Of a DNA stretch of 64,000 nucleotides, positions 22,007-53,505 are shown piece after piece. Location of the stretch: the IMG/VR virus record IMGVR_UViG_3300022468_000286; one strand, written 5' to 3'. Under the pieces are notes generated by a model. The model searched no databases, was not told where the DNA came from, and saw only the letters and a program-made list of their open reading frames with translations. This DNA is from a virus. Taxonomy: Duplodnaviria; Heunggongvirae; Uroviricota; Caudoviricetes. Each line of letters opens with the position of its first letter. Positions within the stretch are counted from its first letter, which is position 1. Both the position numbers and the translations under genes were made by a program.

Positions 22007-22016
22007 ATTTTCCTTA

Positions 22017-36531: not shown

Positions 36532-36618
36532 TGGTGCAACAGGTGAGATTCGAACTCACGGTGGGATTTCTCCACTGGCTTATGAGGCCAGAGCCTGCAA
36601 CCGCACGGCGTCTGTTGC
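36532..36618 (-). tRNA. Type II (long variable arm) tRNA with anticodon CAU and discriminator A
   Basis: 87 nt read by hand. It has the acceptor GCAACAG/CTGTTGC, a 3-bp D-stem, anticodon stem CTGGC/GCCAG with loop CU-CAU-AA, a ~15-nt variable arm, T-arm GTGAG-TTCGAAT-CTCAC and an encoded ACCA. Position 8 is A. Confidence 0.6.
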
Positions 36619-38801: not shown

Positions 38802-38825
38802 AAGATAGCTGCCGTTGTCAATGCT

Positions 38826-39398
38826 TTAAGTTTTAAAACTCATCAGTGCATCATACGCTCTAGAATCTAGTTGAGACTTGTATTGTTCAGCAAGAAGCCT
38901 CAATTTCGCAAGTTTAGCTTTAGTGTAAATCTTAAGACAATCTTCCAGTGTGCCGATATGTAGATGGCCTGATTTTCTTTTCCCATTTACAACAGTCGAA
39001 AGCTGTGCCACATATTTACCGTTAGATTTCTTAAAATATACCCCGTGCGGAAGATTTCCGTTTGTCGTTCGGCAGTCTGAAATCAGAGTATTAATTTCGT
39101 TAGGTAGAAAACAGCAAGACATTTCTGAGTATAGCTTACCACAACCCAGTAGGTCTTTATCTAACTGCCAGTTTGGAACAAAGTTTTTCAAATACCATTT
39201 TCTGAAATTTGAATGCAGCAGCCAATCATTTCTGACATGACATCCTTCATAACTTGGCTTCTTTTCTTGATATAACTTGCTATAACATCTTCGAATCATG
39301 CTGTGCCAAACAGCATAAGAGTCTAAGCTTGAACTTAGATCATTAATGCCTTTACCAAAAATCATTAAAATTCTCCTACACCATTGTCTCGCAACCAT
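38826..39398 (-). CDS. Free-standing homing endonuclease (HNH-like N-terminus + AP2 DNA-binding domain)
   Basis: The AP2 domain is GVYFKKSNGKYVAQLSTVVNGKRKSGHLHIGTLEDCLKIY. It is inserted between the polymerase and primase-helicase genes. Confidence 0.5.
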   Translation of the reverse strand: MVARQWCRRILMIFGKGINDLSSSLDSYAVWHSMIRRCYSKLYQEKKPSYEGCHVRNDWLLHSNFRKWYLKNFVPNWQLDKDLLGCGKLYSEMSCCFLPNEINTLISDCRTTNGNLPHGVYFKKSNGKYVAQLSTVVNGKRKSGHLHIGTLEDCLKIYTKAKLAKLRLLAEQYKSQLDSRAYDALMSFKT

Positions 39399-41110
39399 GT
39401 GTCTAGGTTGAACAGTCTTGCCTTTTCATTATCATAGTACAGTGCCCCTGCTGGTCCTGTCAAGCCATATAAACGATTTTTAGTAACAAAAATCTCTGTG
39501 GTGTTTCGCTTGATCGGGTCTTCAGCCATCTTGTCACGCTTTAGCAGAATATTTGCAGAAGCAGATTTAATAATTGTACTCGAACCCATAATGTTCATTT
39601 CACTATCTGCACCTGATTTCCCAGCTTCAACCTTTCGCATATGATTAACAAATACTAGCGTACAACCGTGAGACTTAATAATACCTTTAGCCCATTTAAG
39701 GAAAAGTGCCTGCTCTTCATTTGAAAGACCGTCCAACACATCCTGCAGAACATCGAGAATAATCACCTTACACCCACAGGCTACAACCAGTTCTTCAATT
39801 GTATCTTGAATCTCTTCAACAGAGCCGTCCCGATTATCTAGTAAATAGAAACGTGGTTCCCCGTCCTCCTTTTTGAACAACTCTTCAGCTTTCTTTTTGA
39901 CATAATCACTGCTGAGGTATTTAATACGCTCTTCGGTAGAACCAATAAGTGCCAATTTCCGTTGCAGATATTGGCTCAACATTGCCTCTCCGTATTGTCC
40001 TGCATCAAGTTCCATAGATACAATCCCCAACATATGTGGGGAATTAAAAACCCAGTATTCCAACATAAAGTTTACAAGAGTTGTCTTACCAAGCCCGGTA
40101 TCAGCAGCTACGTTGATGATTGCACCCACAGGAAGCCCGCCGACAAACTTATTATTCAATTCTTCCATTTCAGGTGGGAATGGGATTTTAGGAACCTCGG
40201 CCTGTTCAAGAATGCGAGCATAAAGATCGCTAGAAGGCAGAACCCCAACAGGTACTCTCTTTTCAGCGTTGAAGAAGTCCGAAATAAATTCCTTACTCTT
40301 GCCAGCCTTCAGGTACTCATTAGCGTCTTTAAAGCGCATCTTCATGATCTTGACCTTACCCTTTGGCAAGGACGGAATCAAGGCTTCAATGGCTTCCTGA
40401 CCGGCTTTATCAGCATCATAGCAAAGGATGATATTGTCAAAGCTATCTAGGAACTTGTACTGAGCTTTGATCTGCTTCTTACTCTGAGCGCCAGTAGTGG
40501 GACTGACTACTGCAGTTTCAAAATCCCAGCCCTTAAAAGTGTTATACTCCTTGAGCATCTGGTAGGCAGATAGTTGATCAACTTCCCCTTCAGTAATCAC
40601 TACATATTTACCGCCTCGATTAAATCGAAACTGTCCGAACAGTTCACAATCAGCACCTGTCCTGCCAATGGATCGGAAATTCTTAGGAACTTCTCGGATT
40701 TTATAGCCTACCAGTTGACCTTCTTGAGTGCATGGGTAATACTGTTCTAGGACTTCACCTGTCTCTTCATCAAACGAATGCCGCACACCAAAGTAAGCAA
40801 GCGTCGCATCAGTAAGGCTCCGGAAATTATTAGCTTTGGTGCTTGTCTCGGATTTAATCTCTGCGGCTTCCTCAGTAGTCAAGGCTGGCTTAGTACTCTT
40901 TTGAACTTCTACTTCTGTATCTTGTTTCATTGCTTCCCTTCGTTTCTTTCTTTGAGAACCTGACTTACTTTCTGCAAGTATCTCTTTGTATTCATCACTC
41001 AAGGTAGCAGCTTGGCAAACAAAACAGTATGTACTGCCGTCACTATAAACTGCCTTCCCATCACTGCTGCCGCATTTGCTACATTCTTCGTGCTTAATAA
41101 ATCCAGCCAA
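39365..41110 (-). CDS. Bifunctional primase-helicase (T7 gp4-like: Zn-ribbon + TOPRIM + DnaB-family helicase)
   Basis: The Zn-ribbon is CSKCGSS...CFVCQA, the TOPRIM is YDADKAG, the Walker A is AADTGLGKTT and the Walker B is VIILDVLQD. Confidence 0.85.
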   Translation of the reverse strand: MAGFIKHEECSKCGSSDGKAVYSDGSTYCFVCQAATLSDEYKEILAESKSGSQRKKRREAMKQDTEVEVQKSTKPALTTEEAAEIKSETSTKANNFRSLTDATLAYFGVRHSFDEETGEVLEQYYPCTQEGQLVGYKIREVPKNFRSIGRTGADCELFGQFRFNRGGKYVVITEGEVDQLSAYQMLKEYNTFKGWDFETAVVSPTTGAQSKKQIKAQYKFLDSFDNIILCYDADKAGQEAIEALIPSLPKGKVKIMKMRFKDANEYLKAGKSKEFISDFFNAEKRVPVGVLPSSDLYARILEQAEVPKIPFPPEMEELNNKFVGGLPVGAIINVAADTGLGKTTLVNFMLEYWVFNSPHMLGIVSMELDAGQYGEAMLSQYLQRKLALIGSTEERIKYLSSDYVKKKAEELFKKEDGEPRFYLLDNRDGSVEEIQDTIEELVVACGCKVIILDVLQDVLDGLSNEEQALFLKWAKGIIKSHGCTLVFVNHMRKVEAGKSGADSEMNIMGSSTIIKSASANILLKRDKMAEDPIKRNTTEIFVTKNRLYGLTGPAGALYYDNEKARLFNLDTWLRDNGVGEF

Positions 41111-41296: not shown

Positions 41297-41812
41297 TCAT
41301 CCTAGTGTATACCCAAGAGGTTTCATCTTAGTCATGATACGTTCAGCATAGTCTTGGCGGTGAGAGTGATCAATGTTTGTCACCTTAATAACCTTTGTTG
41401 CCTTGGACTCATAGTACTCTACTGTTCCAACAGAATTTTTAGATTCAGTATCGTAATAAACCTGTGAAATACTCAGAGGAAAGCCACTGAGTAACTTATT
41501 CAGGTTATTTACTACAATAATCTGAACCTTTACATGTTTATATTGATACTCGTACACATTCAAAAGGTTGGGATTACCTTGATACTCTGCAGGCAGAGTC
41601 ATATTCTGTGAGTTATACAAATCAAACATATTGTTGAACTGAAACAGCTTACCCTTATAGTCTGTAAAAATATCAATATCCTTGGCAGGCATATTGTGAT
41701 CCCAATCTCTAGGTGCTCCACCAGCAGCAAAAGCAGTGAATCCAGCTTCGTTGATTTTAGATATAAAATACTCTGCTACTTCTTTTTGTTTTTTAATCAA
41801 AACTTCTTTCAT
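41297..41812 (-). CDS. Minimal nucleotidyltransferase with CCA-adding/poly(A) polymerase head-domain signature
   Basis: The motif is GGAPRDWDHNMPAKDIDIFT (GGxxRD...DxD). It is only 171 aa. Confidence 0.5.
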   Translation of the reverse strand: MKEVLIKKQKEVAEYFISKINEAGFTAFAAGGAPRDWDHNMPAKDIDIFTDYKGKLFQFNNMFDLYNSQNMTLPAEYQGNPNLLNVYEYQYKHVKVQIIVVNNLNKLLSGFPLSISQVYYDTESKNSVGTVEYYESKATKVIKVTNIDHSHRQDYAERIMTKMKPLGYTLG

Positions 41813-42024
41813 TATTTCCTCTCAAAGTTAAGCCATTCTGGCGTATCTACAAATAACACATCAAAGTCATCACTCTTATGTCCTGCCTCATGAGCTTCAT
41901 ACCTGTAGTACCACATGCCATCAGGCCACACCAGAATATCTTCTAGATCAAATGTTTTATTATCAATACTTTGCTTCATGCCACTCCTTTGGTGTAAAGG
42001 TACAAGTATAGCAGAAAAGAACAC
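41812..42024 (-). CDS. Small hypothetical protein
   Basis: 70 aa. Confidence 0.25.
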   Translation of the reverse strand: MFFSAILVPLHQRSGMKQSIDNKTFDLEDILVWPDGMWYYRYEAHEAGHKSDDFDVLFVDTPEWLNFERK

Positions 42025-42052
42025 AAGTGCAAGACTTATGTTCCTTCTTAAA

Positions 42053-43123
42053 TCACTCCAGATTGCTCATAAAGAATTCGCGGGCTTTCTTAGAGATCGC
42101 TCCGTTTACATCCTTTGGCTCAATACCTGATGCGATCATGGTAGAAAGCTCTTCCTTGAGGATATCACCTACAACCCAGCGCAGGTAGTCGCCAGTGCTT
42201 CGAACACTGTGTTCTAGGCCCATCTCTGTAAGCTTATCAAGCCCTTGCTTCAGACGGTTTTCAGTACAAGCGTAATCCACGAACTCTTGAACACTCTTAA
42301 CCTTTTCCTCGTCCACTGGAGCAATAGTCTTTACCTTACTAGCACTGTGCTTCTCACCTTTAACCTTGAAGCGAAGATCGCACAGGGTAGTATATAGTTC
42401 CTGTGAAATATCTGGATTATCATCAAGGTTTACTTCGGGCGATACAGACCAAAAAATACCTTCACCAATAAGCTCTCGGGCTTCATCTGGGCCAAGTAGT
42501 TGTCGTGCTACTGGGCAGTCCTTCTCTACACTTTCAGTCAGTGCAACCAGTTGATTTTGCACCAGTGTTGGAGTATCGAAATCAATCTCTACACTATACG
42601 TAGGAAAGTTATGCGAGAAATAAATATTATCAGGACGGCCCCTCTCATCAAAGAAAGATTCCCAACTGCGAGTGGAATGCCATTCCTTCCCTTCTGCATC
42701 TTCACTGAAGCGAATAGCAAAGACTACAAACATCTTTGGAAGATAGGACAGGCCAACACCCTTTTGGATATTACCACCGCACCATTCACCGTAGATTTGA
42801 ACGCACTCTCCGTCCTTGAGGATACCTCCAGAAAGGTCAATAGCTACATTATCCCAGTATTCCTTGTTACCGTATACCCAAGCAGCAAAGCCAGCGTTGT
42901 CGCTCTCAGGAGTGATGATACGTTCACGGCTTTGGCACCACCATTCACCTTTTTGGTTAATTACAACGGCAGCATTAGTGCCGTGCAGCTTTACAGTACC
43001 CTGCAGGCGAACTTTAGGTACAGGCACATTGTGGTACTTAGCTGTAGATTGCACTTGCTTAATAGCATCGCGGAACTGCCCGGTGCTTGGAAACTTAATG
43101 AAGGTATTCTTTTGAACTTGCAT
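42053..43123 (-). CDS. RNA ligase (Rnl2-like)
   Basis: Motif I is VKLHGTNAAV (T4 Rnl2 has KIHGTN). The size of 356 aa is compatible, and later motifs are EWCGGNIQ and ...KVKGEKHSASK. Confidence 0.55.
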   Translation of the reverse strand: MQVQKNTFIKFPSTGQFRDAIKQVQSTAKYHNVPVPKVRLQGTVKLHGTNAAVVINQKGEWWCQSRERIITPESDNAGFAAWVYGNKEYWDNVAIDLSGGILKDGECVQIYGEWCGGNIQKGVGLSYLPKMFVVFAIRFSEDAEGKEWHSTRSWESFFDERGRPDNIYFSHNFPTYSVEIDFDTPTLVQNQLVALTESVEKDCPVARQLLGPDEARELIGEGIFWSVSPEVNLDDNPDISQELYTTLCDLRFKVKGEKHSASKVKTIAPVDEEKVKSVQEFVDYACTENRLKQGLDKLTEMGLEHSVRSTGDYLRWVVGDILKEELSTMIASGIEPKDVNGAISKKAREFFMSNLE

Positions 43124-43125
43124 AT

Positions 43126-43395
43126 TTACTCCTCTACCTCAACCAACTTCATGTTGAGCTTCTTGAATCGAAAGTCTTTTGCCTTGACTGTATTTGTTGA
43201 GAAAACAGTAGATGGTGCATTTAACCAACAACCATAAACTCCATGTTCATCTTTAGGGGAATAGTTTACGACAAACAATATCCATCCAGCATAGTACCCG
43301 TGAGGGTCTGCAACACACTCATAAATCTCTCCAGCTTTCAGGTTCCCCGGCGCTACGTGAATTTTTTGCTCATCCTTAAGTCGTTCAATTTGCAT
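43126..43395 (-). CDS. Hypothetical protein
   Basis: 89 aa. Confidence 0.3.
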   Translation of the reverse strand: MQIERLKDEQKIHVAPGNLKAGEIYECVADPHGYYAGWILFVVNYSPKDEHGVYGCWLNAPSTVFSTNTVKAKDFRFKKLNMKLVEVEE

Positions 43396-43415
43396 ATTTT
43401 TCTCCTTTAGTAAGA

Positions 43416-43877
43416 TTACAACACCCAGCAGGTTTTCTTTACTTGATTCTGTGGGTCACAGTCATTGATGATGGCTTCGATTATATCCCAATCTCCACCA
43501 CCAAGTCCAGCACCAATCTTAGGGAAATGAACTTCTAGGTCAGTTGCCTTTGCCTGACGGAAAACTTCCGTGAAGGCTTTGGCAATGGCTGCATAGTTAA
43601 CATGCCTCCGATCCGTACCGAAATACTCTTGAGTAATTGCATTAGCAATAAAAAGGTTCTTGGAAAAGTCAATACAAAATTCAGGATTAAACCAAACAAC
43701 GCTTCCAAGCGGAAGAGTTTCTTCTTCATAAACCCGGCGATATTCAAGGAAGCATTCAAAGTACTTATTCTTGATTGCAAGTGCTACACCTGAACCCATG
43801 ACACCCTGAGCATTGCAGCCATGCACGATGATGCCAACTTTTACGTCAAGAAGATTGCCGCGTTTATATTCAATCAT
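43416..43877 (-). CDS. Macro-domain protein (ADP-ribose / Appr-1''-p binding or processing)
   Basis: The motifs are GIIVHGCNAQGVMGSGVALAIK and KIGAGLGGGDW. Confidence 0.65.
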   Translation of the reverse strand: MIEYKRGNLLDVKVGIIVHGCNAQGVMGSGVALAIKNKYFECFLEYRRVYEEETLPLGSVVWFNPEFCIDFSKNLFIANAITQEYFGTDRRHVNYAAIAKAFTEVFRQAKATDLEVHFPKIGAGLGGGDWDIIEAIINDCDPQNQVKKTCWVL

Positions 43878-44045: not shown

Positions 44046-44939
44046 CTACTCCTTAAAATCCATAAAATCACGAATGCCTTTGAACACAGGGAATCGAGGA
44101 ACATCATATCCACCAAGGTCAAAGAACTTAACAGTAGCGAACTTTCCGATGAGTGTATCACGGATTGCCCAAAGAGCATCACGAGTCTCATCATCAAACC
44201 CGCTACCACAGCCGAATTCTACACCAGTTTTAGTCTTCAGGTACAATACCCCTAGTGTGTCCAATGGAATCATTCCTGCTTGAGCAGTACTTCGTGAAGT
44301 CCTTCCAAGTTCATTGATCTTCGCTTCGTTTGCATTGTGATACTTACAATCAAATCCGACGATTTCAAATTCCTCGTCCTTGAAAAGCTTCAACTTCAGC
44401 AGCAGACCTTCCTTCAAGGAGCTTCGACCGAACTTATATTTTCCGTCAGGCTTCTTGGTCATTGCCCCTTCATACCCTTGCTTAACATACTGCTTGCGAA
44501 GGGCCTCCAGAGCCTCTGCAGAGTGTACAAGAACTTGAGGTAGTACCGAGGTATTGCTAGGCAAGATACGCGATTCTAGAGCCTTTAGACGATCCTCAAA
44601 GCCTCCTTCAGAAACGATATCAAACGCATAGAAACTGAAATCCTGTACCTTGTCATGTGACATTACAAAACTTGCAGTTTCACGGAAGACATTCTCTGCG
44701 GTAGGGCTACCTACAATGAATTCCCCGTCTACGTTTTCAAGAGCTTGTGCATTTCGCTTGGCCCATTCCTGAATGCTTTTATTAGGGATAGGCTTCAGAC
44801 TGCGTGACAATGCTACACCATTCCGAATAACAGCACGGATACCATCAAGCTTAGGGCTGACGTATACAGGGTACTTGATATCAGCCAGAACATCTACCTG
44901 AGAAGCCAGCATTGGCTTGAATTCTTTGATCTTCGTCAT
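44046..44939 (-). CDS. ATP-dependent DNA ligase
   Basis: Motif I is SPKLDGIRAV (KxDG). 297 aa. Confidence 0.8.
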   Translation of the reverse strand: MTKIKEFKPMLASQVDVLADIKYPVYVSPKLDGIRAVIRNGVALSRSLKPIPNKSIQEWAKRNAQALENVDGEFIVGSPTAENVFRETASFVMSHDKVQDFSFYAFDIVSEGGFEDRLKALESRILPSNTSVLPQVLVHSAEALEALRKQYVKQGYEGAMTKKPDGKYKFGRSSLKEGLLLKLKLFKDEEFEIVGFDCKYHNANEAKINELGRTSRSTAQAGMIPLDTLGVLYLKTKTGVEFGCGSGFDDETRDALWAIRDTLIGKFATVKFFDLGGYDVPRFPVFKGIRDFMDFKE

Positions 44940-45545: not shown

Positions 45546-45881
45546 TTACTTTTTGTTTGCTTCTTTTGACTCATTTGCTCTTTCTGCCTCCCGCATAGTT
45601 TCCTGTAGTTCTTTCTTGAAAGTAATACTTGGCCTGAATTTTACATTGTAACTCTTAGGAAAGTCTACCGTCTTCTTGAGTTGAAAATTATAAGCGGATT
45701 TTGGATTGATGACCTTCAAGGAAAAGAAACCAACACCGGGAAGGTTCACATCTTGCCCTTGCATGATTTCGTCAATGATTGTAGCACGAAGAACACGAAG
45801 CATATCATCGTATTCATACGCATGATACTCTGGGTTGTTCGCGTGCATTGTCCTTGCAAGCTCTCTCTGGGATTTATGCAA
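45546..45881 (-). CDS. HU/IHF-like DNA-binding protein
   Basis: The HU-fold pattern is present (DVNLPGVGFFSLKVINPKSAYNFQLKKTVDFPKSYNVKFRPSITFKKEL), followed by a Lys-rich tail. Confidence 0.55.
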   Translation of the reverse strand: MHKSQRELARTMHANNPEYHAYEYDDMLRVLRATIIDEIMQGQDVNLPGVGFFSLKVINPKSAYNFQLKKTVDFPKSYNVKFRPSITFKKELQETMREAERANESKEANKK

Positions 45882-46448
45882 TTAACGCTCCTTGTGATGA
45901 TCAGTAATGACAAGTTCTTGCCTTGCCATATAATTTGCAATATCGAATTCACTATAAAACCGATGTGAACCGAACTGATTGTAACTGTTGTCAATCCCTA
46001 CGTCAAGCATCTTCCCTGTAGGACTCTTCAGGTTTCCGTGACAGTGCCCATGCAGATGCCAAGAGCCATACCCTTGCTTGTGCCACGCCATAATAGGGAA
46101 GTGAAACAGAACAACAGGATGATCGCCAATCTTGATTTCCTTATACTGCCACCAGTTGTTAATCAGTCCATCCTTTTTAAGCCAATCATATGCAGCCGTG
46201 CTGTCGTGATTACCCTTAATCAGATTAATATTACCATTCAGCCTAGAAACGAACTTCGCAATATCCTCGTACTTACTTGCAAAGGACAGATCACCGAGAT
46301 GCCAAACTTCATCCTGTTCGGCAACATCACGATTCCAGACATTCACCAACCATTCGTCATGGTCTTCTACTGTTGTTTGCCAGCCTCGATTTGTAAATTC
46401 TACAATACGCTTATGGCGGTGGTGTAAATCACTTGTAAAAATCTTCAT
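45882..46448 (-). CDS. Calcineurin-like metallophosphoesterase
   Basis: The motifs are SDLHHRH, GDLS and GNHD. Confidence 0.6.
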   Translation of the reverse strand: MKIFTSDLHHRHKRIVEFTNRGWQTTVEDHDEWLVNVWNRDVAEQDEVWHLGDLSFASKYEDIAKFVSRLNGNINLIKGNHDSTAAYDWLKKDGLINNWWQYKEIKIGDHPVVLFHFPIMAWHKQGYGSWHLHGHCHGNLKSPTGKMLDVGIDNSYNQFGSHRFYSEFDIANYMARQELVITDHHKER

Positions 46449-47309
46449 TTAAACTCCTTTCAACTGTTCAAGAACTGACCTGCGATTAACTTCAGAAAGC
46501 TCTTTCCAGAAACTCAAATCATACACATTAGTAATAAATGCAGGAACATCTTGCCACATTTTAGGCAAGGATTCTGCAAACTTCTGAGGGTTATTGTACA
46601 TGACTTCAGAGTTCTTTGCACTCAAACGCATCAACTTCTTCTTACCTACGTAGTAAGGAGTTTTGATCTTTGCTGGACTAAGACGATCAGGATCATCCTT
46701 TAGATTGTACACCATGAAACCTTCACCTGTATTAACCTCAGCGATTGCAAGGATACCTTTGAGAGTGCCTACGTACATATCCTCTGCTTTGCCGTAAGGG
46801 CCGAATGTACCGTCTACGCTGCGCCGACCAAGATAATGCGCCCCTACAGGCTCATCAACAATATGCGGATCGTCCTTATGAACAATCTCATAAAGCAATG
46901 TGCAGTCAGGAGCCAACCAGTTCAAGTCCGGCAGAAGTTCCTTAGCATATCCAACAAAATCACTCTTAGTGCTTCCTGTGGTGCTTACGATCAGTTCGCC
47001 TTCATGCTTACTGACGCATGCCATGAATCCGTTGTACTTCTTGTAAGCAATCACTGGAGTGTCCAGAGGAACATCCTTCCACCAGCCGTTTTCCAAGTAG
47101 TTAAAGCTCTTACGTGGTGCTGCAACTACAAGCTTGCCGGTGCGATTATCATAAGTCTGTCCACGGCATTCCAGAAGGCGTTCGTCAGTATCCCAGAGGT
47201 AATCAAACATTACACGACGAGCGTACTTGAACGTATCCAAGTGTCCGTTGGTGCTTACGGTCGCCAGCTTGTTAGCAACCAACTCTTGCATTTGTTCGTA
47301 TGTATTCAT
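46449..47309 (-). CDS. Covalent nucleotidyltransferase, RNA-ligase-like (Rnl1-type candidate)
   Basis: Motif I is AYKKYNGFMACV, motif IV EGFMVYN and motif V KIKTPYYVGKKK. 286 aa. Confidence 0.45.
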   Translation of the reverse strand: MNTYEQMQELVANKLATVSTNGHLDTFKYARRVMFDYLWDTDERLLECRGQTYDNRTGKLVVAAPRKSFNYLENGWWKDVPLDTPVIAYKKYNGFMACVSKHEGELIVSTTGSTKSDFVGYAKELLPDLNWLAPDCTLLYEIVHKDDPHIVDEPVGAHYLGRRSVDGTFGPYGKAEDMYVGTLKGILAIAEVNTGEGFMVYNLKDDPDRLSPAKIKTPYYVGKKKLMRLSAKNSEVMYNNPQKFAESLPKMWQDVPAFITNVYDLSFWKELSEVNRRSVLEQLKGV

Positions 47310-47659
47310 TATTTACTCCACTTCTTCGTTTTGTAGTCCCACCCGATTTCCTTGTAGAACTCCCATAAGTTTGGAAGTTCAATCAACGTAGTGTACTCCG
47401 GAGGCGGCTCTTTGCCTAGACTTTTCTTAAAAATTTCTATTGTCTGATAGAAATCATCCACATGCTGGAAATGATACATGAGTTCATAATCGTTCAGTTC
47501 TTTACCTCCCTTCCAGTTTCTTTGTTTTGTACTATGAAAGAAAGCACCAGAGCTTACACGGGAGCGATAACATATAGGATACTTCCCGTCATCCAGATCA
47601 AAAACAAATCTCCGATTGCTACGAGGATTGCGCCTAATTTCAGTAATAATTACTCGCAT
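47309..47659 (-). CDS. Hypothetical protein
   Basis: 116 aa. Confidence 0.3.
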   Translation of the reverse strand: MRVIITEIRRNPRSNRRFVFDLDDGKYPICYRSRVSSGAFFHSTKQRNWKGGKELNDYELMYHFQHVDDFYQTIEIFKKSLGKEPPPEYTTLIELPNLWEFYKEIGWDYKTKKWSK

Positions 47660-47730
47660 AGATTCCTTTCAAAAACAAAAACCCCCAATACAGATAATGT
47701 ACTGGAGGTTTCGTTGCCTGTCAAGGCTTT

Positions 47731-49155
47731 TTACACACTGGCGTTAGCACGTACTTGATCAAAGGTCATAGAGTTCAGCACCTGACCGTTGAGGTAACGG
47801 CAGATGAGAGCCCCGTCAGAGGTATCTTCACGAGTCAGAAGGTTATCCGTCACGTACTCACCGTCATTGCCCCGGAAGAGCCACACAAGGCCCTTCTTGG
47901 ATACCTTGCCCTTATCGGTAACTGGGTCTTTGAACACGTCACGCCAATCAACAGAAGCAAAGAATCCTTCGTCTGAATCAAGCTTTTCGTTATTACCGAC
48001 AGCACTGCACTTCATGGCGTACTTCTGGTCATCCCGTGTAACAGCTTGCAGCAATGCACCGCCTTGGCCGAAGGCGAGCATATCAGCAGAGTACCCGTAA
48101 ATGTCCACAGCAGTACGCAGGATGGTTTCAATGGTGAGCTTAGTAATACCGTCGCCCCAGATCATGCGAACGTTATTCAGAACCTTGTAGCCCTTATCGT
48201 TCGTCACATATCCGAAGTATTGTTCAAGGATTCGCAAGCATGTAGGTACGACCAAAGCAGGATCGCCGCTATCAGGACGGACAACAAGAGTAGCACAGCT
48301 TGCCTTGATTTCCTCTGCAAGTTCACCCCACATATGGCATGCCTTGTAGATATCATACGAATCAGATACGCATGCAAAGATAGCACCGGGCTTGGCAAAT
48401 TTCTTAATCATATTGCGGTAAGCATCCTTTTCACCGTCACGACCCCAAGAGGTAATCGTGCTGTGTTCGCTCGCGCCGATACTGAAAATAACAGGCTCGG
48501 TAGCGTCGTAATACTTAGCAGCAAACAGTTGACCAGTCATAGTGTCAGAGCCCATGAAATTTACGGCATGCGACAGAGAGCCAAGACCAGCAGTTTCAAA
48601 GCTAGAAGCACCACGAGCGCCAAAGTCATGCAGCTTGAAATCCAGACCAGAAACATCTCCGGACTTTTCAAGGTAGCTTTTGATTACCTTCTTGATTTCC
48701 CGAGAGTTAGTAGCGACAGTAGAAGTGTACCATGCAGCGCGAAGGAGAGCAGTTTCAATCCAAGTAGTTGCGAATGGAAATTCAGGGTCAGTATTGACAA
48801 CCACAGCAAGAACATTCTTTGTCTTGACAACAGAGCCATCTGGTACTGCAAATACAGCCACAGGCCAATAACCGTTGTACTTCTTGAACATCTTACGGAT
48901 TTGTTCTTCAGGGAATACACTACCGAAAGCAGGCCAAGTCTTCACTGCAAAGTCAATATCTTCTTCAGTGAAGGGCTTAGACAGATATTCACGGATGAAA
49001 GGCTGGACAAGTCCTGCGACCACTTCATCATAAATCCCACCGCGAGATTCAATGTAAGAGTAAACGTATTGCACATCTTCAGGGTATTGGGCAAACATGC
49101 CTACCTTGTAAGAGTCCGTGTTGAGAAGAATGGATTGTGTGTTGAAATTAGTCAT
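47731..49155 (-). CDS. nadV: Nicotinamide phosphoribosyltransferase (NAMPT/NadV)
   Basis: 474 aa type II PRTase with NAMPT-family organisation and DFGARGASS. Confidence 0.8.
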   Translation of the reverse strand: MTNFNTQSILLNTDSYKVGMFAQYPEDVQYVYSYIESRGGIYDEVVAGLVQPFIREYLSKPFTEEDIDFAVKTWPAFGSVFPEEQIRKMFKKYNGYWPVAVFAVPDGSVVKTKNVLAVVVNTDPEFPFATTWIETALLRAAWYTSTVATNSREIKKVIKSYLEKSGDVSGLDFKLHDFGARGASSFETAGLGSLSHAVNFMGSDTMTGQLFAAKYYDATEPVIFSIGASEHSTITSWGRDGEKDAYRNMIKKFAKPGAIFACVSDSYDIYKACHMWGELAEEIKASCATLVVRPDSGDPALVVPTCLRILEQYFGYVTNDKGYKVLNNVRMIWGDGITKLTIETILRTAVDIYGYSADMLAFGQGGALLQAVTRDDQKYAMKCSAVGNNEKLDSDEGFFASVDWRDVFKDPVTDKGKVSKKGLVWLFRGNDGEYVTDNLLTREDTSDGALICRYLNGQVLNSMTFDQVRANASV

Positions 49156-49165
49156 AGTAAGCTCC

Positions 49166-50194
49166 TTACTTTGGGTTGATAATGAAAGAGTTATAAAAAG
49201 CAGGCAAGGGTTTTGTCTGCGTCATCACCTGAATTATATCAGAATGATCGTCATGCAGTCTATAAGTATTTACTGCATCTGAGATAGGAACCCACTTGCA
49301 CTCTGCTGCGTCGTCAGCACCATTTGCTCTTGGCAACTTACCGTCAGCATCTGGTGCGATCTTGAAGTGTACCACAAAAGTGCTGCGAGGAATACCTGAG
49401 CCGCGTGTAGGGCTATCAAAAAGTTTAGTATTTACGATTGAACCTACCAGAACTTTCTCAGGAACACGAAGATTGGTTTCCTCGAAAGCCTCGCGGATGG
49501 CGCATTCTGTAAAAGTTTCAGTATTATTCTTGAATCCTCCCGGAAGAGCCCAAGTATTACGCCCCGGTGCGTACTTCCGACGAATCAGTAGAATATGTCC
49601 ATTGCATTCAATCAGAGCGTCTGAGCAGACAAAGTTCAAAGTCTCCGGATATGGGTAGTCCTTGAAACGATGATTTTCATTAATGAAATACTTGAAGTCC
49701 TCTACAACATCCTCTGGAAGTGCAAGTCCACTGTGTTCTTTTTGATTAACGAACATGCTCCATCGAATAGTAGTTGCATTGATATTACTTGAGCTTTCGA
49801 TATTATGAAAGCCATATTGCGGGAACCACTTCAGATAATCATTACCCTCTTTATCAAACCCAAAGAGAATCCTCTTGCCGAATGATTTATGCATATTGAC
49901 GATCTCTTGTACATCAAGAATCCACTGAGTATCACTGTACTTATAGTCATTCACAGGGATTACCTGAGCGTCTTCAAAATCCAGACCATTCTTATCTAGA
50001 AAAGCCTGAATCAGTTCCTTGCGCTCGGAGTAAGTCCAAGGGTTTTTGATTGTTCGTGCTACGTTAGCACTACCTACGACGATTAGAAGCTTGTCGCAGA
50101 GCTTCTTAGCCTTCAGGATAATCTCCTTGTGTCCTTCGTGCAGAGGTTGGAATCGACCAATAATGATTCCGAGAGTCTTTGTTTTTTCTTGCAT
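49166..50194 (-). CDS. Bifunctional NMN adenylyltransferase / Nudix hydrolase (NadM-Nudix type)
   Basis: The N-terminal GIIIGRFQPLHEGH nucleotidyltransferase motif is present. The Nudix box is LPGGFKNNTETFTECAIREAFEETNL. Confidence 0.8.
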   Translation of the reverse strand: MQEKTKTLGIIIGRFQPLHEGHKEIILKAKKLCDKLLIVVGSANVARTIKNPWTYSERKELIQAFLDKNGLDFEDAQVIPVNDYKYSDTQWILDVQEIVNMHKSFGKRILFGFDKEGNDYLKWFPQYGFHNIESSSNINATTIRWSMFVNQKEHSGLALPEDVVEDFKYFINENHRFKDYPYPETLNFVCSDALIECNGHILLIRRKYAPGRNTWALPGGFKNNTETFTECAIREAFEETNLRVPEKVLVGSIVNTKLFDSPTRGSGIPRSTFVVHFKIAPDADGKLPRANGADDAAECKWVPISDAVNTYRLHDDHSDIIQVMTQTKPLPAFYNSFIINPK

Positions 50195-50222
50195 ATAAGC
50201 TCCTTAGTATGCGGTTGTTGTC

Positions 50223-50609
50223 TTAGATTTCCTGAACTGCTGCTGACTTGAAGCCTGCCTTGATTTGCAGGACAATAAATATCCTCTCAGAATTCAATCC
50301 AGCAAGACGGGCAGCTTCGGACTTCGCAGAGCTTTCTGTATCGTGCGACAGTGGATTTTGAGATACGCTGAATTTACCAATTGAATCAATACTCCCCACA
50401 ATATACTTACGATCTGCTACCATTTTAGTGTAATCTTTCATTTCATTCTCCTTTTCATCTGTGATTTTTATGAACCTGTGCTTTGAATGCCAAACCCAGA
50501 ATTCACCGTTCCATATATGATATTTATCATCTGTACTTTCTACCGCGAAATAAATCTGGCCGAGAGATAGGAAAATTGAACCAGTTGAATCAACGCATTG
50601 TACTCTCAT
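50223..50609 (-). CDS. Hypothetical protein
   Basis: 128 aa. Confidence 0.3.
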   Translation of the reverse strand: MRVQCVDSTGSIFLSLGQIYFAVESTDDKYHIWNGEFWVWHSKHRFIKITDEKENEMKDYTKMVADRKYIVGSIDSIGKFSVSQNPLSHDTESSAKSEAARLAGLNSERIFIVLQIKAGFKSAAVQEI

Positions 50610-50617
50610 AGTCTACC

Positions 50618-51070
50618 TCAAAGTTTAACCGAAAACCTGTTACGCTGGCGCTGAAGTACAGCATCGGGAACATCATGTACTGACATTGTATCATTACGAT
50701 TCTCAATAATCAAGGACACAAAGTTAGCATTGTATTCTTTTGCAATATCTTGACACACCTTCACTTCCGCTTCGGTAGTGCTGGTGTTAGACACTACGAC
50801 ATTCATACCGTATTTCAGGGCCAAGCCTGTCGTGGCTTGGCACCAAGAATGCGCCTGATGCAGCTTTGATCGGTCAAACGTATAAACTCCGTCATTCATG
50901 AAGTACATATCTGTTTCAATATGCCAAGCACCAATAGCATCGGCAAAAGCCTTAGCAAAGGTACTCTTACCTGCTCCGCTAACGCCGCGAACAAGATAAA
51001 GAGTAGATTTAGTTTTATCAAGCATTGATTTTCTCCTTTTGACTGATCTTGTTGGCAGTAATGACATCAA
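50618..51070 (-). CDS. Polynucleotide 5'-kinase-like P-loop kinase (T4 Pnk kinase-domain-like)
   Basis: The Walker A is GVSGAGKST. The DMYF, VVVSNTST and HDVPDAVLQRQRNRF motifs occur in the same order as the T4 Pnk kinase domain. It is kinase-only, 150 aa. Confidence 0.5.
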   Translation of the reverse strand: MMSLLPTRSVKRRKSMLDKTKSTLYLVRGVSGAGKSTFAKAFADAIGAWHIETDMYFMNDGVYTFDRSKLHQAHSWCQATTGLALKYGMNVVVSNTSTTEAEVKVCQDIAKEYNANFVSLIIENRNDTMSVHDVPDAVLQRQRNRFSVKL

Positions 51071-51333: not shown

Positions 51334-51783
51334 CTAATCTCCTTTAAAAATTTCCACAAGTATACCAGCTTCACGAAGCAAGTCAAGACCTTTTGTATCA
51401 CGGTAAGGCTCTTTGTATATCAACCTAGTGATACCAGCATTTATCATCATAGCAGAGCATGGAACGCAGGGCGACAGTGTAACATACATTGCAGACCCAA
51501 GGCAAGAGACTCCTTCACGAGCAGCTTTCATTATACAGTTCAATTCAGCATGAATAACTTCTGGTTTTGTAATAAGTTCTGGAGGGTTCCAGTGTCCCCA
51601 CTTAAAAATCTGATCTTCGCACTCGTTAGAAAGCCCTATAGGCGTTCCATTGAATCCAGCTAGGCATACCCCTTGGCTAGTCACCAAACAGGCCCCTACG
51701 GTGGCTCTACGGGCCTTGCTGAGCTTTGCGTGCAGCATTGCTACACCCATGTATGTACTATCAAGTTCTTTTTGATTAGCCAC
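51334..51783 (-). CDS. dCMP deaminase
   Basis: The zinc motifs are HAELNCIMKAA and SPCVPCSAMMINAGI. Confidence 0.8.
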   Translation of the reverse strand: MANQKELDSTYMGVAMLHAKLSKARRATVGACLVTSQGVCLAGFNGTPIGLSNECEDQIFKWGHWNPPELITKPEVIHAELNCIMKAAREGVSCLGSAMYVTLSPCVPCSAMMINAGITRLIYKEPYRDTKGLDLLREAGILVEIFKGD

Positions 51784-52217
51784 TAAGATTTCTCCAAAGA
51801 TTCAAAAACTTTAAATTTCCTATCCAGTAGCCACAGCAAGCCATCATCCCCGTAATTATAATCATCAGGGATTCTCCAGCAGTGAGCTTTTCTATGCACC
51901 TCATCCAGCAAATCATGATTGGTATTTGCAAGATGCTTGCGGACACTGTATTCATTATCTTCGTTCATGAAGATTATATGGTCAGCCCACCATATCAAAT
52001 TCTCAGAGATAGGAATCAGTGCAAGCTTGAGATTGCTACCGCAAGAGCGAGCGTTATATCCGCGCTTAATAGCCTCTGCTGCAGCCGTAGGACTACGCAG
52101 AAGACCAACAGTGCATACGAAAAGAAGACGCTTGGCTGGACCTTGCGAATGATTATTATAAGGGCAACCATTAGCGAATAGCTTCTCTGTTTTTGTGATA
52201 TACGGCTCTACTGACAC
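51783..52217 (-). CDS. Low-molecular-weight protein tyrosine phosphatase / ArsC-fold phosphatase-like
   Basis: The CX5R(S/T) P-loop is LLFVCTVGLLRSPTAAAEA. 144 aa. Confidence 0.5.
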   Translation of the reverse strand: MSVEPYITKTEKLFANGCPYNNHSQGPAKRLLFVCTVGLLRSPTAAAEAIKRGYNARSCGSNLKLALIPISENLIWWADHIIFMNEDNEYSVRKHLANTNHDLLDEVHRKAHCWRIPDDYNYGDDGLLWLLDRKFKVFESLEKS

Positions 52218-52496: not shown

Positions 52497-53297
52497 TTAC
52501 TTGTTGATATTACCCAGAGCAGTCAGATTGCTAGGGATAATGATCGTCTGTACCTTGCCAGCCTTAACAGCTTCTGCAATCAGCAGTTGAGACTGAGCCT
52601 GCATGTAAGCAATACTTTGACCTGCATTCTCAGACAGAGCCTTTTGGCGCTTTGCTTCGGCTTCAGCAATTGCAATTTCGTTTTGCTTAATCTTCAGTTC
52701 ATTCTGAGACTTCACAAGGTCAGTAGCAGCCTTGAGAATATCAGCATTAGGCTGAATATTCCGAACCTGCACCGCAGACAGAATCAAGGAAGTATCAAGC
52801 TTTTCTTCACGAAGTTGCGCTTGAACTAGATCACGAATCTCAGCTTCAATCTTCACTCGGCTATCAGCGACTTCCAAGGACTTGTAGCCACGGACGGACT
52901 TGTAAACAGCGTTATTGACCAAGGTATTCATGTAATTATACATCAGGTAAACATCCCCGTCAGTTCCCTTCATGTGAAAACTCTTGGCTTTATTCTTGTA
53001 AAGCTCTGCAACAGCAGTAGGAGACACGCTATACACGATGCTTACATCAAAATCCGCCAGAGCAGAGTTATCAGCCGTCAAGGGCTTTGCATCATTAAGA
53101 GGGACAGTCAAATCTCGAATTGGGAATTGCAGAACATCCCCAAACAGAACTTGATGGTATCCAGTGTTGAGTTCATTACCCTCGATAGTACCGCCAGTGG
53201 TAACACGCACACCGATTTCGCCGTCAGTAATCCGTGTGCAACCAGTGCTAAATGCAGCAGCAACAACCAGAGCAGCAATCATAAAAAACTTCTTCAT
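52497..53297 (-). CDS. SPFH/band-7 (stomatin/HflK/C-like) lipoprotein
   Basis: The start MKKFFMIAALVVAAAFSTGC has an RBS aaaggag. The SPFH core and a C-terminal coiled-coil (EAEAKRQKALSE...) follow. The ORF-track start at 53360 is an extension. Confidence 0.55.
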   Translation of the reverse strand: MKKFFMIAALVVAAAFSTGCTRITDGEIGVRVTTGGTIEGNELNTGYHQVLFGDVLQFPIRDLTVPLNDAKPLTADNSALADFDVSIVYSVSPTAVAELYKNKAKSFHMKGTDGDVYLMYNYMNTLVNNAVYKSVRGYKSLEVADSRVKIEAEIRDLVQAQLREEKLDTSLILSAVQVRNIQPNADILKAATDLVKSQNELKIKQNEIAIAEAEAKRQKALSENAGQSIAYMQAQSQLLIAEAVKAGKVQTIIIPSNLTALGNINK

Positions 53298-53307
53298 ATA
53301 AACTCCT

Positions 53308-53505
53308 TTAAAGAAAAATAACAATACACATTGTAGCAAGTGCAGCAAGGATTGCAACACCTACATATAGAAACAAAGCTTTTACTGGAACTTGTGGAAG
53401 GTATTTCTTCACTCCATAGTAAATAAAAACCATTAGTACATATACTAGAGTGAAACTCAGAAGTACTTTAATCAAAGGAAGCATAGTATTATGCGTTGGT
53501 GTCAA
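53308..53505 (-). CDS. Small 2-TMD membrane protein (NfeD-like partner candidate)
   Basis: 65 aa hydrophobic, immediately upstream of the SPFH gene. Confidence 0.35.
   Translation of the reverse strand: MTPTHNTMLPLIKVLLSFTLVYVLMVFIYYGVKKYLPQVPVKALFLYVGVAILAALATMCIVIFL

What the first reader, a model, noticed from the sequence alone, without database searches (positions are those of the whole stretch)
47731..50194. NAD+ salvage pair (NAMPT + bifunctional NMNAT-Nudix) adjacent to RNA repair genes
NadV-type nicotinamide phosphoribosyltransferase and an NadM-Nudix fusion are encoded back-to-back. This two-enzyme route, as known from vibriophage KVP40-type phages, rebuilds NAD+ from nicotinamide. 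It has been proposed to counter NAD+-depleting immune effectors (TIR, SIR2 and SEFIR domain systems). Its placement among macro-domain and RNA-repair genes suggests a consolidated counter-defence island.
Basis: partly seen in the sequence, partly recalled or inferred. Interest (0 to 1): 0.5.

Follow-up and report, generated by a model that had tools for sequence, protein, structure and literature searches.

The report
Phage NAD+ rebuilding gene pair (NARP2)
An uncultivated freshwater-type phage carries an intact two-gene cassette (NMN adenylyltransferase-Nudix plus nicotinamide phosphoribosyltransferase) of the already described NARP2 kind, which rebuilds NAD+ that bacterial defences destroy; it is a new example of a known system, inserted into an older RNA-repair gene cluster.

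Summary
Two minus-strand ORFs, 49166-50194 (NadM-Nudix, 342 aa) and 47731-49155 (NAMPT, 474 aa), lie 10 nt apart. All catalytic motifs are intact and both proteins align full-length with solved enzymes. The pair belongs to the known NARP2 kind (KVP40 NadV/NatV), which has been shown experimentally to overcome Thoeris, DSR2 and aRES. NadM-Nudix followed by NAMPT is a conserved cassette in 26 of 30 sampled lineages. Here the genes look translationally coupled and end at a strong intrinsic-terminator-like hairpin.

The "consolidated counter-defence island" reading is only partly supported. The closest cultured relative, Limnohabitans phage DC31, has the kinase and Rnl1 genes 12 nt apart and lacks the NAD pair genome-wide. 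The pair, plus two small unknown ORFs, therefore looks like an insertion into a pre-existing kinase-Rnl1-phosphoesterase cluster. The macro domain and Rnl2 occupy a second variable slot.

Across 84 NARP2 loci, RNA-repair genes lie within 10 kb in 8 of 30 lineages and show no clustering toward the pair (p=0.43). A macro domain lies directly adjacent in only 3.

Verdict: new member of a known kind, low-to-moderate interest.

The parts
49166..50194 (-). NadM-Nudix: bifunctional NMN adenylyltransferase (residues ~8-150) plus Nudix ADP-ribose pyrophosphatase-type domain (~190-325); first gene of the cassette
   Evidence: Pfam CTP_transf_like and NUDIX. NCBIfam PRK05379 models give 166-221 bits, below their 354-449 cutoffs. 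PDB 2qjt and 2qjo match full-length. Motifs GRFQPLHEGH 13-22, NATTIR 139-144, Nudix box G220-x5-E226-x7-R234-E235-x2-E238-E239, FDSPTR 259 and DDH 315 are conserved across 8 homologues.
47731..49155 (-). NAMPT (NadV-type nicotinamide phosphoribosyltransferase); second gene of the cassette
   Evidence: Residues equivalent to mammalian Y18, F193, R196, D219, H247, R311, D313, G353-D354, G383-G384, R392 and K400 are Y16, F178, R181, D204, H231, R293, D295, G334-D335, G365-G366, R374 and K382 (alignment to 2gvl; positions).
49156..49172 (-). Gene junction: the NadM-Nudix stop codon TAA lies inside the Shine-Dalgarno sequence (AAGTAAGGAGCTTACTATG) of NAMPT; likely translational coupling
   Evidence: Sequence read directly. 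The repeat finder reports the same RBS context before both genes (D7).
50195..50211 (-). Shine-Dalgarno context (CTAAGGAGCTTATATG) of NadM-Nudix
47667..47712 (-). Intrinsic-terminator-like hairpin (15 bp stem, 5-nt loop) followed by UUUUUGUUUUUG, in the 71-nt gap directly after the NAMPT stop codon; a promoter-like TTGACA-17-TACATT (47724..47696) overlaps it
   Evidence: Consensus scan. RNA fold -27.5 kcal/mol, z = -4.33, 0 of 200 shuffles as stable. Single copy in the window.
50223..50609 (-). u128, unknown 128-aa ORF; part of the segment present here but absent between kinase and Rnl1 in phage DC31; not conserved with NARP2 elsewhere
   Evidence: PHROG 17352, unknown function. No homologue in 84 NARP2 loci or in DC31.
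47309..47659 (-). u116, unknown 116-aa ORF downstream of the terminator; its stop overlaps the Rnl1 start; part of the inserted segment relative to DC31
   Evidence: PHROG 9342, weak. Absent from the 84 loci and from DC31.
50618..51025 (-). Context, not part of the cassette: AAA_33 / polynucleotide-kinase-like P-loop kinase, upstream flank of the insertion
   Evidence: Pfam AAA_33 3e-11, PHROG 2071 and 505. Gene call of 135 aa. 49% identical to the DC31 gene that directly abuts Rnl1.
46449..47309 (-). Context: Rnl1-like RNA ligase, downstream flank of the insertion
   Evidence: PHROG 562 4e-31; Pfam RNA_lig_T4_1 5e-4, below cutoff. Homologues are annotated RNA ligase/RnlA in deposited phages. 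50% identical to the DC31 homologue.
45882..46448 (-). Context: metallophosphoesterase, candidate end-healing phosphatase
   Evidence: PHROG 547 1.6e-44. 58% identical to the DC31 homologue. Recurs contiguous with Rnl1 and the kinase in L004, L005 and L036; L075 has the phosphoesterase and kinase together.
43416..43877 (-). Context: macro-domain protein (TARG1/DarG/Poa1p-like), in the second variable slot
   Evidence: Pfam Macro 9.5e-10, NCBIfam DarG 4e-17. PDB 2fg1 8e-13, DarG 1e-8, Poa1p 2.5e-5. Absent from DC31.
42053..43123 (-). Context: Rnl2-like RNA ligase (KLHGTN motif), second variable slot
   Evidence: Pfam RNA_ligase 8.7e-15, PHROG 548 6.8e-64. DC31, L091 and L094 carry a DraRnl-type ligase next to the DNA ligase instead.

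Best explanation
This is a NARP2-type NAD+ reconstitution cassette. It is a two-gene, probably translationally coupled unit that closes a transcription unit at an intrinsic terminator. NAMPT condenses nicotinamide with PRPP to give NMN. This step is ATP-stimulated through the conserved autophosphorylated histidine, here H231. The N-terminal NadM domain of the upstream protein adenylylates NMN with ATP to give NAD+. The C-terminal Nudix domain most likely splits ADP-ribose into AMP and ribose-5-phosphate. That would clear the other product of NAD+ cleavage and return ribose-5-phosphate to host PRPP synthesis. Expressed during infection, the pair keeps the NAD+ pool up and so blunts host defences that kill by NAD+ depletion (TIR, SIR2, SEFIR and RES-type effectors). 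In this phage lineage the cassette is an acquired accessory. It was inserted between the kinase and the Rnl1 ligase of an older RNA-repair cluster. Shown here: gene structure, domain content, intact catalytic motifs, cassette conservation, and the insertion relative to DC31. Inferred from homologues: the enzymatic activities, from the solved and assayed Francisella, Synechocystis, Xanthomonas, human and KVP40 enzymes. Inferred from the KVP40 experiments: the counter-defence effect.
For: Domains and family scores. Full-length alignment with solved NAMPT and NadM-Nudix enzymes. Catalytic residues and motifs are all present. Nampt rather than Namat: best match is Xcc Nampt at 1.3e-125 against about 1e-43 to 1e-45 for the weakest PDB entries; Xcc Nampt is a PRPP-using Nampt that lacks the Namat adenine clamp; an adjacent Nmnat and no Adps/Prs-like gene among the scanned window ORFs. 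In 84 homologous loci NAMPT is present and co-oriented in 76 (26 of 30 lineages) and directly downstream in 60 of 76. Function of the kind: the KVP40 pair makes NAD+, cancels Thoeris, DSR2 and aRES, and occurs in about 1.1% of phages; NadM-Nudix homologues occur in 478 of 50,697 phage records here. Operon anatomy. Accessory status and insertion.
Against: No experiment exists on these proteins. The NadM-Nudix protein is only 36% identical to KVP40 NatV and scores below the NCBIfam equivalog cutoffs. Substrate preferences, especially of the Nudix domain, are extrapolated. NARP2 makes NAD+ whether or not a defence is active, so a general metabolic benefit cannot be separated from counter-defence by sequence alone. 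The host and its defence repertoire are unknown. About 22 kb of the roughly 86-kb genome lies outside the window.
Confidence: 0.82

Rival explanations
1. The pair is a general auxiliary metabolic module. Any counter-defence effect would be incidental.
For: NARP2 raises NAD+ even in cells without a defence system. The pair sits in the nucleotide-metabolism and replication arm, beside dCMP deaminase, DNA ligase, primase-helicase and ribonucleotide-reductase-like genes.
Against: NARP2 is metabolically costly and toxic when expressed. It is patchy: it is absent from the closest relatives DC31, L089 and L091-L094, which share the same replication module. That pattern is more typical of arms-race cargo than of core metabolism. 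The two readings are not mutually exclusive.
Confidence: 0.3
2. The pair is one arm of an integrated damage-reversal island, functionally coupled to the flanking RNA-repair enzymes and the macro domain. For example, NAD+ might be supplied for an NAD-dependent RNA-repair step, or the macro domain might feed ADP-ribose derivatives to the Nudix domain.
For: The pair, the macro domain and Rnl2 are all accessory relative to DC31, and they lie within 8 kb of one another. A macro domain is directly adjacent to the pair in three independent lineages: L011, where the gene coordinates overlap, L014 and L080. Rnl1 lies within 1 kb of the pair in 4 loci. A macro-domain ADPR-1''-phosphatase is a proven add-on of NARP1.
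Against: The kinase-Rnl1-phosphoesterase cluster predates the pair. A terminator-like hairpin separates the pair from Rnl1. The RNA-repair genes are not concentrated toward the pair in 84 loci: 9 of 22 within 3 kb against 37% expected, p=0.43. Macro domains are common in large phages, 2,235 records. NARP2 alone already defeats aRES. No NAD-consuming RNA-repair enzyme (Tpt1/KptA), ADP-ribosyltransferase or NAD-dependent ligase was found; the DNA ligase is ATP-dependent.
Confidence: 0.15
3. The phosphoribosyltransferase is a Namat (NARP1-type ADPR-PP transferase) and not a Nampt.
For: Namat and Nampt are homologous, and generic NAPRTase profiles hit both.
Against: The best matches are bona fide Nampt enzymes at 1e-125 and 1e-96. 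NCBIfam PRK09198 scores above its cutoff. The partner is an Nmnat, not an Adps. No Prs-like gene was found in the window.
Confidence: 0.02

Closest known systems
NARP2 of Vibrio phage KVP40 (NadV Nampt + NatV Nmnat-Nudix; Osterman et al., bioRxiv 10.1101/2024.02.11.579819; biochemistry by Lee et al. 2017, cited there)
   Same: Same two enzymes with the same domain architecture: NAMPT_N plus NAPRTase, and cytidylyltransferase-like plus Nudix. Same predicted chemistry: nicotinamide + PRPP gives NMN, then NMN + ATP gives NAD+.
   Different: NatV is only 36% identical. In KVP40 the two genes are not adjacent, whereas here they are 10 nt apart and probably translationally coupled. The host phage here is a roughly 86-kb DC31-like phage, not a 245-kb Schizotequatrovirus.
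Adjacent NadM-Nudix/NAMPT cassettes of Acidovorax phage ACP17 and of about 170-kb uncultivated IMG/VR phages
   Same: Same gene order, orientation and tight spacing. These are the closest sequence relatives: 48-58% for NadM-Nudix and 50-58% for NAMPT.
   Different: Unrelated genomic backbone. Neighbours differ; ACP17 has hypothetical proteins and a DarB-like protein.
Bacterial NadM-Nudix (Francisella tularensis 2QJT/2R5W, Synechocystis slr0787 2QJO) and bacterial or mammalian NAMPT (Xanthomonas 7YQO, human and rodent)
   Same: Full-length homology, with all catalytic and substrate-binding motifs conserved.
   Different: Those are cellular housekeeping salvage enzymes. The phage copy has a 12-residue insertion in NAMPT around residues 388-401 relative to Xcc Nampt.
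NARP1 and NARP1-AP (Adps + Namat, with or without macro-domain Adpp phosphatase)
   Same: Same end product and the same strategic logic of rebuilding NAD+ after immune cleavage. Namat is a homologue of Nampt. A macro domain also lies in this window's neighbourhood.
   Different: No Adps is present. The enzyme is Nampt-like and the partner is Nmnat. The macro domain is not in the operon: it lies 3.85 kb away, beyond a terminator.
NARP3 (PnuC transporter + NadR-like RNK-NMNAT; PMC13464706)
   Same: Contains an NMNAT step and rebuilds NAD+ as a counter-defence.
   Different: No PnuC and no ribosylnicotinamide kinase domain here. The starting substrate is nicotinamide plus PRPP, not nicotinamide riboside.

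Membership tests
NARP2 (phage Nampt + Nmnat NAD+ reconstitution pathway) | A Nampt-clade (PRPP-using) nicotinamide phosphoribosyltransferase, not a Namat | tested here: met
   PRK09198 at 503 bits against a 405 cutoff. Xcc Nampt 7yqo at 1.3e-125 and mammalian NAMPT at about 1e-96, against about 1e-44 for the weakest PDB entries. Xcc Nampt is documented as PRPP-specific and clamp-less. The clamp residues themselves were not aligned.
NARP2 (phage Nampt + Nmnat NAD+ reconstitution pathway) | An Nmnat homologous to KVP40 NatV encoded by the same phage | tested here: met
   36% identity over 94% of the length to KVP40 NatV, 5e-58. The gene is adjacent and co-oriented.
NARP2 (phage Nampt + Nmnat NAD+ reconstitution pathway) | No Adps (PRPS-like) partner; no phage is reported to carry both NARP1 and NARP2 | tested here: met
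   No Prs/Adps-like hit among the window ORFs scanned. Caveat: about 22 kb of the genome lies outside the window.
NARP2 (phage Nampt + Nmnat NAD+ reconstitution pathway) | The pair makes NAD+ from nicotinamide, PRPP and ATP | not testable with these tools
   Needs enzyme assays. Only motif conservation is available.
NARP2 (phage Nampt + Nmnat NAD+ reconstitution pathway) | Expression rescues phage from NAD+-depleting defence (Thoeris, DSR, SIR2-HerA, aRES) | not testable with these tools
   Shown only for the KVP40 pair.
NAMPT / NadV enzyme family | Catalytic and substrate residues: Tyr18', Phe193, Arg196, Asp219, His247, Arg311, Asp313, Gly353-Asp354, Gly383-Gly384, Arg392 (mammalian numbering; residue roles from established structural literature) | tested here: met
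   All are conserved as Y16, F178, R181, D204, H231, R293, D295, G334-D335, G365-G366 and R374.
NadM-Nudix bifunctional NMNAT / ADP-ribose pyrophosphatase | Nucleotidyltransferase (H/T)xGH motif and ISxTxxR-type motif | tested here: met
   GRFQPLHEGH 13-22 and NATTIR 139-144. R14, H22, T141 and R144 are invariant in 8 homologues.
NadM-Nudix bifunctional NMNAT / ADP-ribose pyrophosphatase | Nudix box GX5EX7REUXEEXGU | tested here: met
   G220-x5-E226-x7-R234-E235-A-F-E238-E239-T-N-L. The G-to-N change at the penultimate position is shared with the Francisella enzyme (EETNI).
NadM-Nudix bifunctional NMNAT / ADP-ribose pyrophosphatase | Score above the NCBIfam PRK05379 equivalog cutoffs | tested here: not met
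   Best score is 221 bits against a 397 cutoff. It is a divergent member. The Pfam domain cutoffs and the full-length PDB alignments are met.
NARP1 (Adps + Namat) | Adjacent PRPS-like Adps and a Namat with an adenine selectivity clamp | tested here: not met
   No Adps is present. The neighbour is an Nmnat. Sequence affinity is to Nampt.
Macro-extended NAD+ reconstitution operon (as in NARP1-AP) | A macro-domain ADPR-1''-phosphatase encoded inside the operon | tested here: not met
   The macro gene is 3.85 kb downstream, beyond a terminator-like hairpin and five to seven intervening genes. Its similarity to Poa1p is weak (2.5e-5) and no better than to DarG or SCO6735.
NARP3 (PnuC + NadR-like) | A PnuC transporter and a ribosylnicotinamide-kinase domain | tested here: not met
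   Only the NMNAT part matches NadR models weakly (TIGR01526 2e-11, far below cutoff). No PnuC was found.

The most novel reading that the evidence does not exclude
The cassette's landing site is not accidental. In some phages NARP2 has become part of an extended recycling module. In that module a macro-domain enzyme converts ADP-ribose derivatives, such as the ADPR-1''-phosphate made by RES-type NADases or RNA- or DNA-linked ADP-ribose, to free ADP-ribose. The Nudix domain then splits this to AMP and ribose-5-phosphate, which feeds PRPP and hence NAMPT. This would be a closed-loop 'NARP2-AP' analogous to NARP1-AP, co-selected with RNA end-healing and sealing enzymes as one damage-reversal island.
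Probability: 0.15. Interest if true: 0.45.

Novelty: new member of a known kind. Interest (0 to 1): 0.2.

Why it matters
The finding adds a divergent, uncultivated-phage example of NARP2 (at most 58% identity to any phage homologue found). It comes with a clean natural comparison: the related cultured phage DC31 lacks the cassette at the same position. That shows NARP2 moving as a compact two-gene unit into the accessory slots of an otherwise conserved replication and repair module. This is useful for annotating anti-defence cargo and for choosing compact cassettes to arm therapeutic phages. It does not change what is known about how NAD+ reconstitution works.

Tried and rejected
- Megablast of the region against deposited phages found no match.
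- Pseudomonas phage vB_PsaM_M1 (PolA 64% identical) was examined as a possible close relative. It shares only about 8 ORFs with the window and was rejected as a backbone reference.
- An IMG/VR search with the Rnl1-like protein found nothing.
- PDB sequence searches for the kinase, the phosphoesterase and the Rnl1-like protein gave no hits, so their RNA-repair role stays at profile level.
- Rfam over the whole window found only two tRNAs, with no riboswitch or intron near the pair.
- A search for repeats flanking the inserted segment, and for other copies of the terminator hairpin, found nothing beyond the shared RBS context, so there is no clue to the insertion mechanism.
- A composition test for foreign origin was negative: GC, GC3 and skews of both genes are within 2 sd of the window's genes. 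The apparent skew dip is not significant per gene.
- A distance-clustering test of RNA-repair genes around NARP2 in 84 loci was not significant (p=0.43). The macro domain within 1 kb was borderline (p=0.054, n=7).
- A Pfam scan of the small neighbouring ORFs for Tpt1/KptA, ADP-ribosyltransferase, Prs/Adps or PnuC found none.
- Not done: the window NAMPT was not compared directly with KVP40 NadV because that gene was not fetched. The costly whole-database protein searches and structure prediction were not used, because sequence matches to solved structures were already decisive.
Full report
OBSERVATION

One is at 49166..50194 (minus strand, 342 aa) and the other at 47731..49155 (minus strand, 474 aa), 10 nt apart.

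The 474-aa protein matches:
- Pfam NAMPT_N (2e-14) and NAPRTase (3.7e-37).
- The NadV-type NCBIfam model PRK09198, above its cutoff (503 against 405 bits).
- PHROG 448, 'nicotinamide phosphoribosyl transferase' (1e-134).

The 342-aa protein matches:
- Pfam CTP_transf_like (2.7e-12) and NUDIX (1e-17).
- PHROG 395 (4e-59).
- All seven NCBIfam 'bifunctional NMN adenylyltransferase/Nudix' models, but below their equivalog cutoffs (best 221 against 397 bits). It is therefore a divergent member.

Both proteins align end to end with solved enzymes:
- Xanthomonas Nampt 7yqo (1.3e-125) and mammalian NAMPT (about 1e-96).
- Francisella NadM-Nudix 2qjt (1.5e-46) and Synechocystis slr0787 2qjo (1e-44).

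CATALYTIC INTEGRITY

I used the alignment to rodent NAMPT in native numbering and motif positions. The residues that structural work identifies as substrate-binding or catalytic are all conserved:

| Mammalian NAMPT | This protein |
|---|---|
| Tyr18 | Y16 |
| Phe193 | F178 |
| Arg196 | R181 |
| Asp219 | D204 |
| His247 (autophosphorylation site) | H231 |
| Arg311 / Asp313 | R293 / D295 |
| Gly353-Asp354 | G334-D335 |
| Gly383-Gly384 | G365-G366 |
| Arg392 | R374 |
| Lys400 | K382 |

The NadM domain has the GRFQPLHEGH (13-22) and NATTIR (139-144) nucleotidyltransferase motifs. The Nudix box is intact (G220-x5-E226-x7-R234-E235-x2-E238-E239). Its one departure from the canonical consensus (N in place of G) is shared with the Francisella enzyme. 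The downstream FDxPxR and DDH motifs are also conserved across eight homologues. Nothing suggests pseudogenisation.

WHAT KIND OF SYSTEM IT IS

The Nampt plus Nmnat pair of vibriophage KVP40 has been named NARP2. Expressed with type I Thoeris or DSR2, it abolished defence. Knocked into phage SBSphiJ, it raised NAD+ and allowed escape. It is found in about 1.1% of phages, and 94% of phages with a KVP40-type Nampt also encode the Nmnat. It uses PRPP and is metabolically costly (bioRxiv 10.1101/2024.02.11.579819). NARP2 also cancels the RES-domain system aRES, which defeats NARP1 (bioRxiv 10.64898/2026.01.28.702374).

The homologous enzyme of NARP1, Namat, uses ADPR-PP. It differs from Nampt by an adenine 'selectivity clamp', which Xanthomonas and human Nampt lack (PMC12774641). 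The window protein's best structural match is that Xanthomonas Nampt. Its partner is an Nmnat. No Adps/Prs-like gene was found among the window ORFs scanned. It is therefore NARP2-type, not NARP1. It is not NARP3 either, which consists of PnuC plus a NadR-like enzyme (PMC13464706).

THE CASSETTE

I collected 84 loci that encode NadM-Nudix homologues: IMG/VR contigs plus phages ACP17, KVP40 and RHph_I1_18. They fall into 30 lineages at 70% identity.
- NAMPT is present and co-oriented in 76 loci (26 of 30 lineages).
- NAMPT lies directly downstream of NadM-Nudix in 60 of those 76.

KVP40 itself is an exception: natV has no NAMPT within 6 kb.

The nearest homologues are only 48-58% identical, namely Acidovorax phage ACP17 and about 170-kb uncultivated phages. 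There is no megablast match to deposited phages. The exact proteins occur on 10-11 metagenome contigs, the longest 86,463 bp.

In the window both genes are preceded by the same strong ribosome-binding context (TAAGGAGCTTA, then 1-3 nt, then ATG). The NadM-Nudix stop codon lies inside the NAMPT Shine-Dalgarno sequence. A stable hairpin with a U-tract fills the 71-nt gap directly after NAMPT: -27.5 kcal/mol, z = -4.3, and none of 200 shuffles as stable. A promoter-like site overlaps it. The pair therefore probably ends a transcription unit, and the Rnl1 genes downstream probably start another. This rests on consensus scans and folding only.

THE 'ISLAND' CLAIM

The neighbours are as described:
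- An Rnl2-like ligase (42053-43123) and a macro domain (43416-43877).
- An ATP-dependent DNA ligase (44046-44939) and HU (45546-45881).
- A metallophosphoesterase (45882-46448) and an Rnl1-like ligase (46449-47309).
- On the other side of the pair, an AAA_33/PNK-like kinase (50618-51025) and a dCMP deaminase (51334-51783).

The kinase, phosphoesterase and Rnl1-like assignments rest on profiles and on annotation of homologues only. None has a PDB sequence hit.

The decisive comparison is with Limnohabitans phage DC31 (PQ492658.1, 76 kb), which emerged as the closest cultured relative. Of the window's 107 ORFs, 29 have DC31 homologues in conserved order. Identities are primase-helicase 63%, dCMP deaminase 69%, phosphoesterase 58%, Rnl1 50%, kinase 49% and DNA ligase 46%.

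In DC31 the kinase and Rnl1 genes are 12 nt apart. In the window they are separated by 3.3 kb holding u128, NadM-Nudix, NAMPT and u116. The complete DC31 genome has no homologue of NAMPT, NadM-Nudix, the macro domain, Rnl2, HU or the nucleotidyltransferase.

Metagenomic relatives with about 70% identical DNA ligase (L089, L091-L094) also lack all of these genes.

So the RNA-repair cluster is older in this lineage, and the NAD pair was inserted into it. The macro domain and Rnl2 sit in a second variable slot between the DNA ligase and the primase-helicase. DC31 holds a DraRnl-type RNA ligase in that slot, and L091 and L094 carry the same ligase type immediately upstream of their DNA ligase.

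This supports 'accessory cargo in variable slots'. It does not show functional consolidation.

Across the 84 NARP2 loci:
- At least one of Rnl1, phosphoesterase or kinase lies within 10 kb in 22 loci (8 of 30 lineages).
- A macro domain lies within 10 kb in 7 loci (6 lineages).
- The repair genes are not concentrated toward the pair: 9 of 22 within 3 kb, against 37% expected (p=0.43).
- Macro domains are directly adjacent in three independent lineages (L011, where the gene coordinates overlap; L014; L080), giving 3 of 7 within 1 kb against 13% expected (p=0.054).
- Rnl1 is within 1 kb of the pair in 4 of 9 loci.

These last numbers are small and the tests are post hoc. Macro domains of this type occur in 2,235 phage records.

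The window's macro domain resembles BT1257, SCO6735 and DarG-type hydrolases at least as well as it resembles the Poa1p ADPR-1''-phosphatase that typifies the NARP1-associated Adpp. I found no NAD-consuming enzyme in the window that would tie NAD+ supply to RNA repair. No flanking repeats or compositional anomaly mark the insertion.

MECHANISM

Most likely, with about 0.8 confidence overall:
1. NAMPT makes NMN from nicotinamide and PRPP.
2. The NadM domain makes NAD+ from NMN and ATP.
3. The Nudix domain hydrolyses ADP-ribose to AMP and ribose-5-phosphate, as in the Francisella and Synechocystis enzymes. This activity is cited from established biochemistry and was not tested here. It would return carbon to host PRPP synthesis.
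4. The net effect is to hold up the NAD+ pool during infection, including against TIR, SIR2, SEFIR and RES effectors.

The enzyme identities are near certain. The counter-defence role is inferred from the KVP40 experiments and from the patchy, accessory distribution. A general metabolic benefit is a compatible rival.

VERDICT

The core interpretation is correct but describes a known system. The island interpretation is only partly supported, and is better stated as an insertion of a mobile NARP2 cassette into a pre-existing RNA-repair cluster. This is a new member of a known kind, with interest about 0.2.

Noticed in passing
window 43416-43877 (-); L011 7446-7907; L014 ~8797; L080 ~12634: The macro-domain protein is of the TARG1/DarG/Poa1p-like type. 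Homologues lie immediately next to the NadM-Nudix/NAMPT pair in three unrelated phage lineages; in Rhizobium phage RHph_I1_18 the gene coordinates overlap those of NAMPT. This hints at a macro-extended NARP2 analogous to the published NARP1-AP.
   Followed up: partly
window 41297-43877 versus DC31 record 38776-39879, L091 8941-9978, L094 1859-2905: Non-orthologous replacement of the RNA ligase kept beside the DNA ligase. DC31 carries a DraRnl-type ligase (OB-fold PF21189 plus PF09414) between its DNA ligase and primase-helicase, and L091 and L094 carry the same type immediately upstream of the DNA ligase. The window instead carries Macro-u89-Rnl2-u70-nucleotidyltransferase between the ligase and the primase-helicase.
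   Followed up: partly
window 50618-51025, 46449-47309, 45882-46448; L004 4978-6757; L005 3245-5013; L036 2897-5400; DC31 locus L124 9479-11927: A kinase, an Rnl1-like ligase and a metallophosphoesterase recur as a contiguous trio in several phage lineages. Their domain content resembles a split bacterial Pnkp (kinase-phosphoesterase-ligase). None has a sequence-level match to a solved structure.
   Followed up: partly
window 51783-52217 (-): A 144-aa protein has a CX5R(S) P-loop (VCTVGLLRS) and a downstream DD-Y motif typical of low-molecular-weight phosphatases (Pfam LMWPc only 0.019). Homologues lie within 5-7 kb of the NAD pair in L054 (49%) and L082 (32%). It is absent from DC31.
   Followed up: no
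window 36660-38801 (-), 38826-39398 (-): The family A DNA polymerase is 64% identical to that of Pseudomonas phage vB_PsaM_M1 (Ounavirinae). It has no detectable homologue in DC31, although the adjacent primase-helicase is 63% identical to DC31's. This suggests a polymerase module swap. An HNH endonuclease gene sits between the polymerase and the primase-helicase.
   Followed up: partly
window 18962-23316 (-): A 336-aa ORF carries only fragments of class II ribonucleotide reductase (RNR-II insertion domain and N-terminal alpha domain). It is flanked by 407-aa and 295-aa ORFs without Pfam hits, so it may be a split or highly divergent RNR. DC31 encodes a two-subunit class I RNR instead.
   Followed up: no
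window 29240-29315 (-), 36532-36618 (-): Two tRNA genes, tRNA-Arg(TCT) and tRNA-Met(CAT), were found by both ARAGORN and Rfam. The tRNA-Met lies just downstream of the polymerase gene.
   Followed up: yes
window 52497-53360 (-): A Band_7/SPFH-family protein with an N-terminal hydrophobic segment. Homologues (38-56%) lie within 2-8 kb of the NAD pair in five IMG/VR loci of one lineage (L008, L019, L020, L026, L045). It is absent from DC31.
   Followed up: no
L026, L028, L036, L052, L055 (between NadM-Nudix and NAMPT): In a few related loci the two genes are separated by 1.5-2.5 kb of inserted sequence. The cassette can therefore be split without losing either gene.
   Followed up: no
window 32896-34971 (-): A 691-aa protein has only a weak GHKL ATPase match (HATPase_c_3, 4e-5) and no DC31 homologue. 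Its function is unknown.
   Followed up: no
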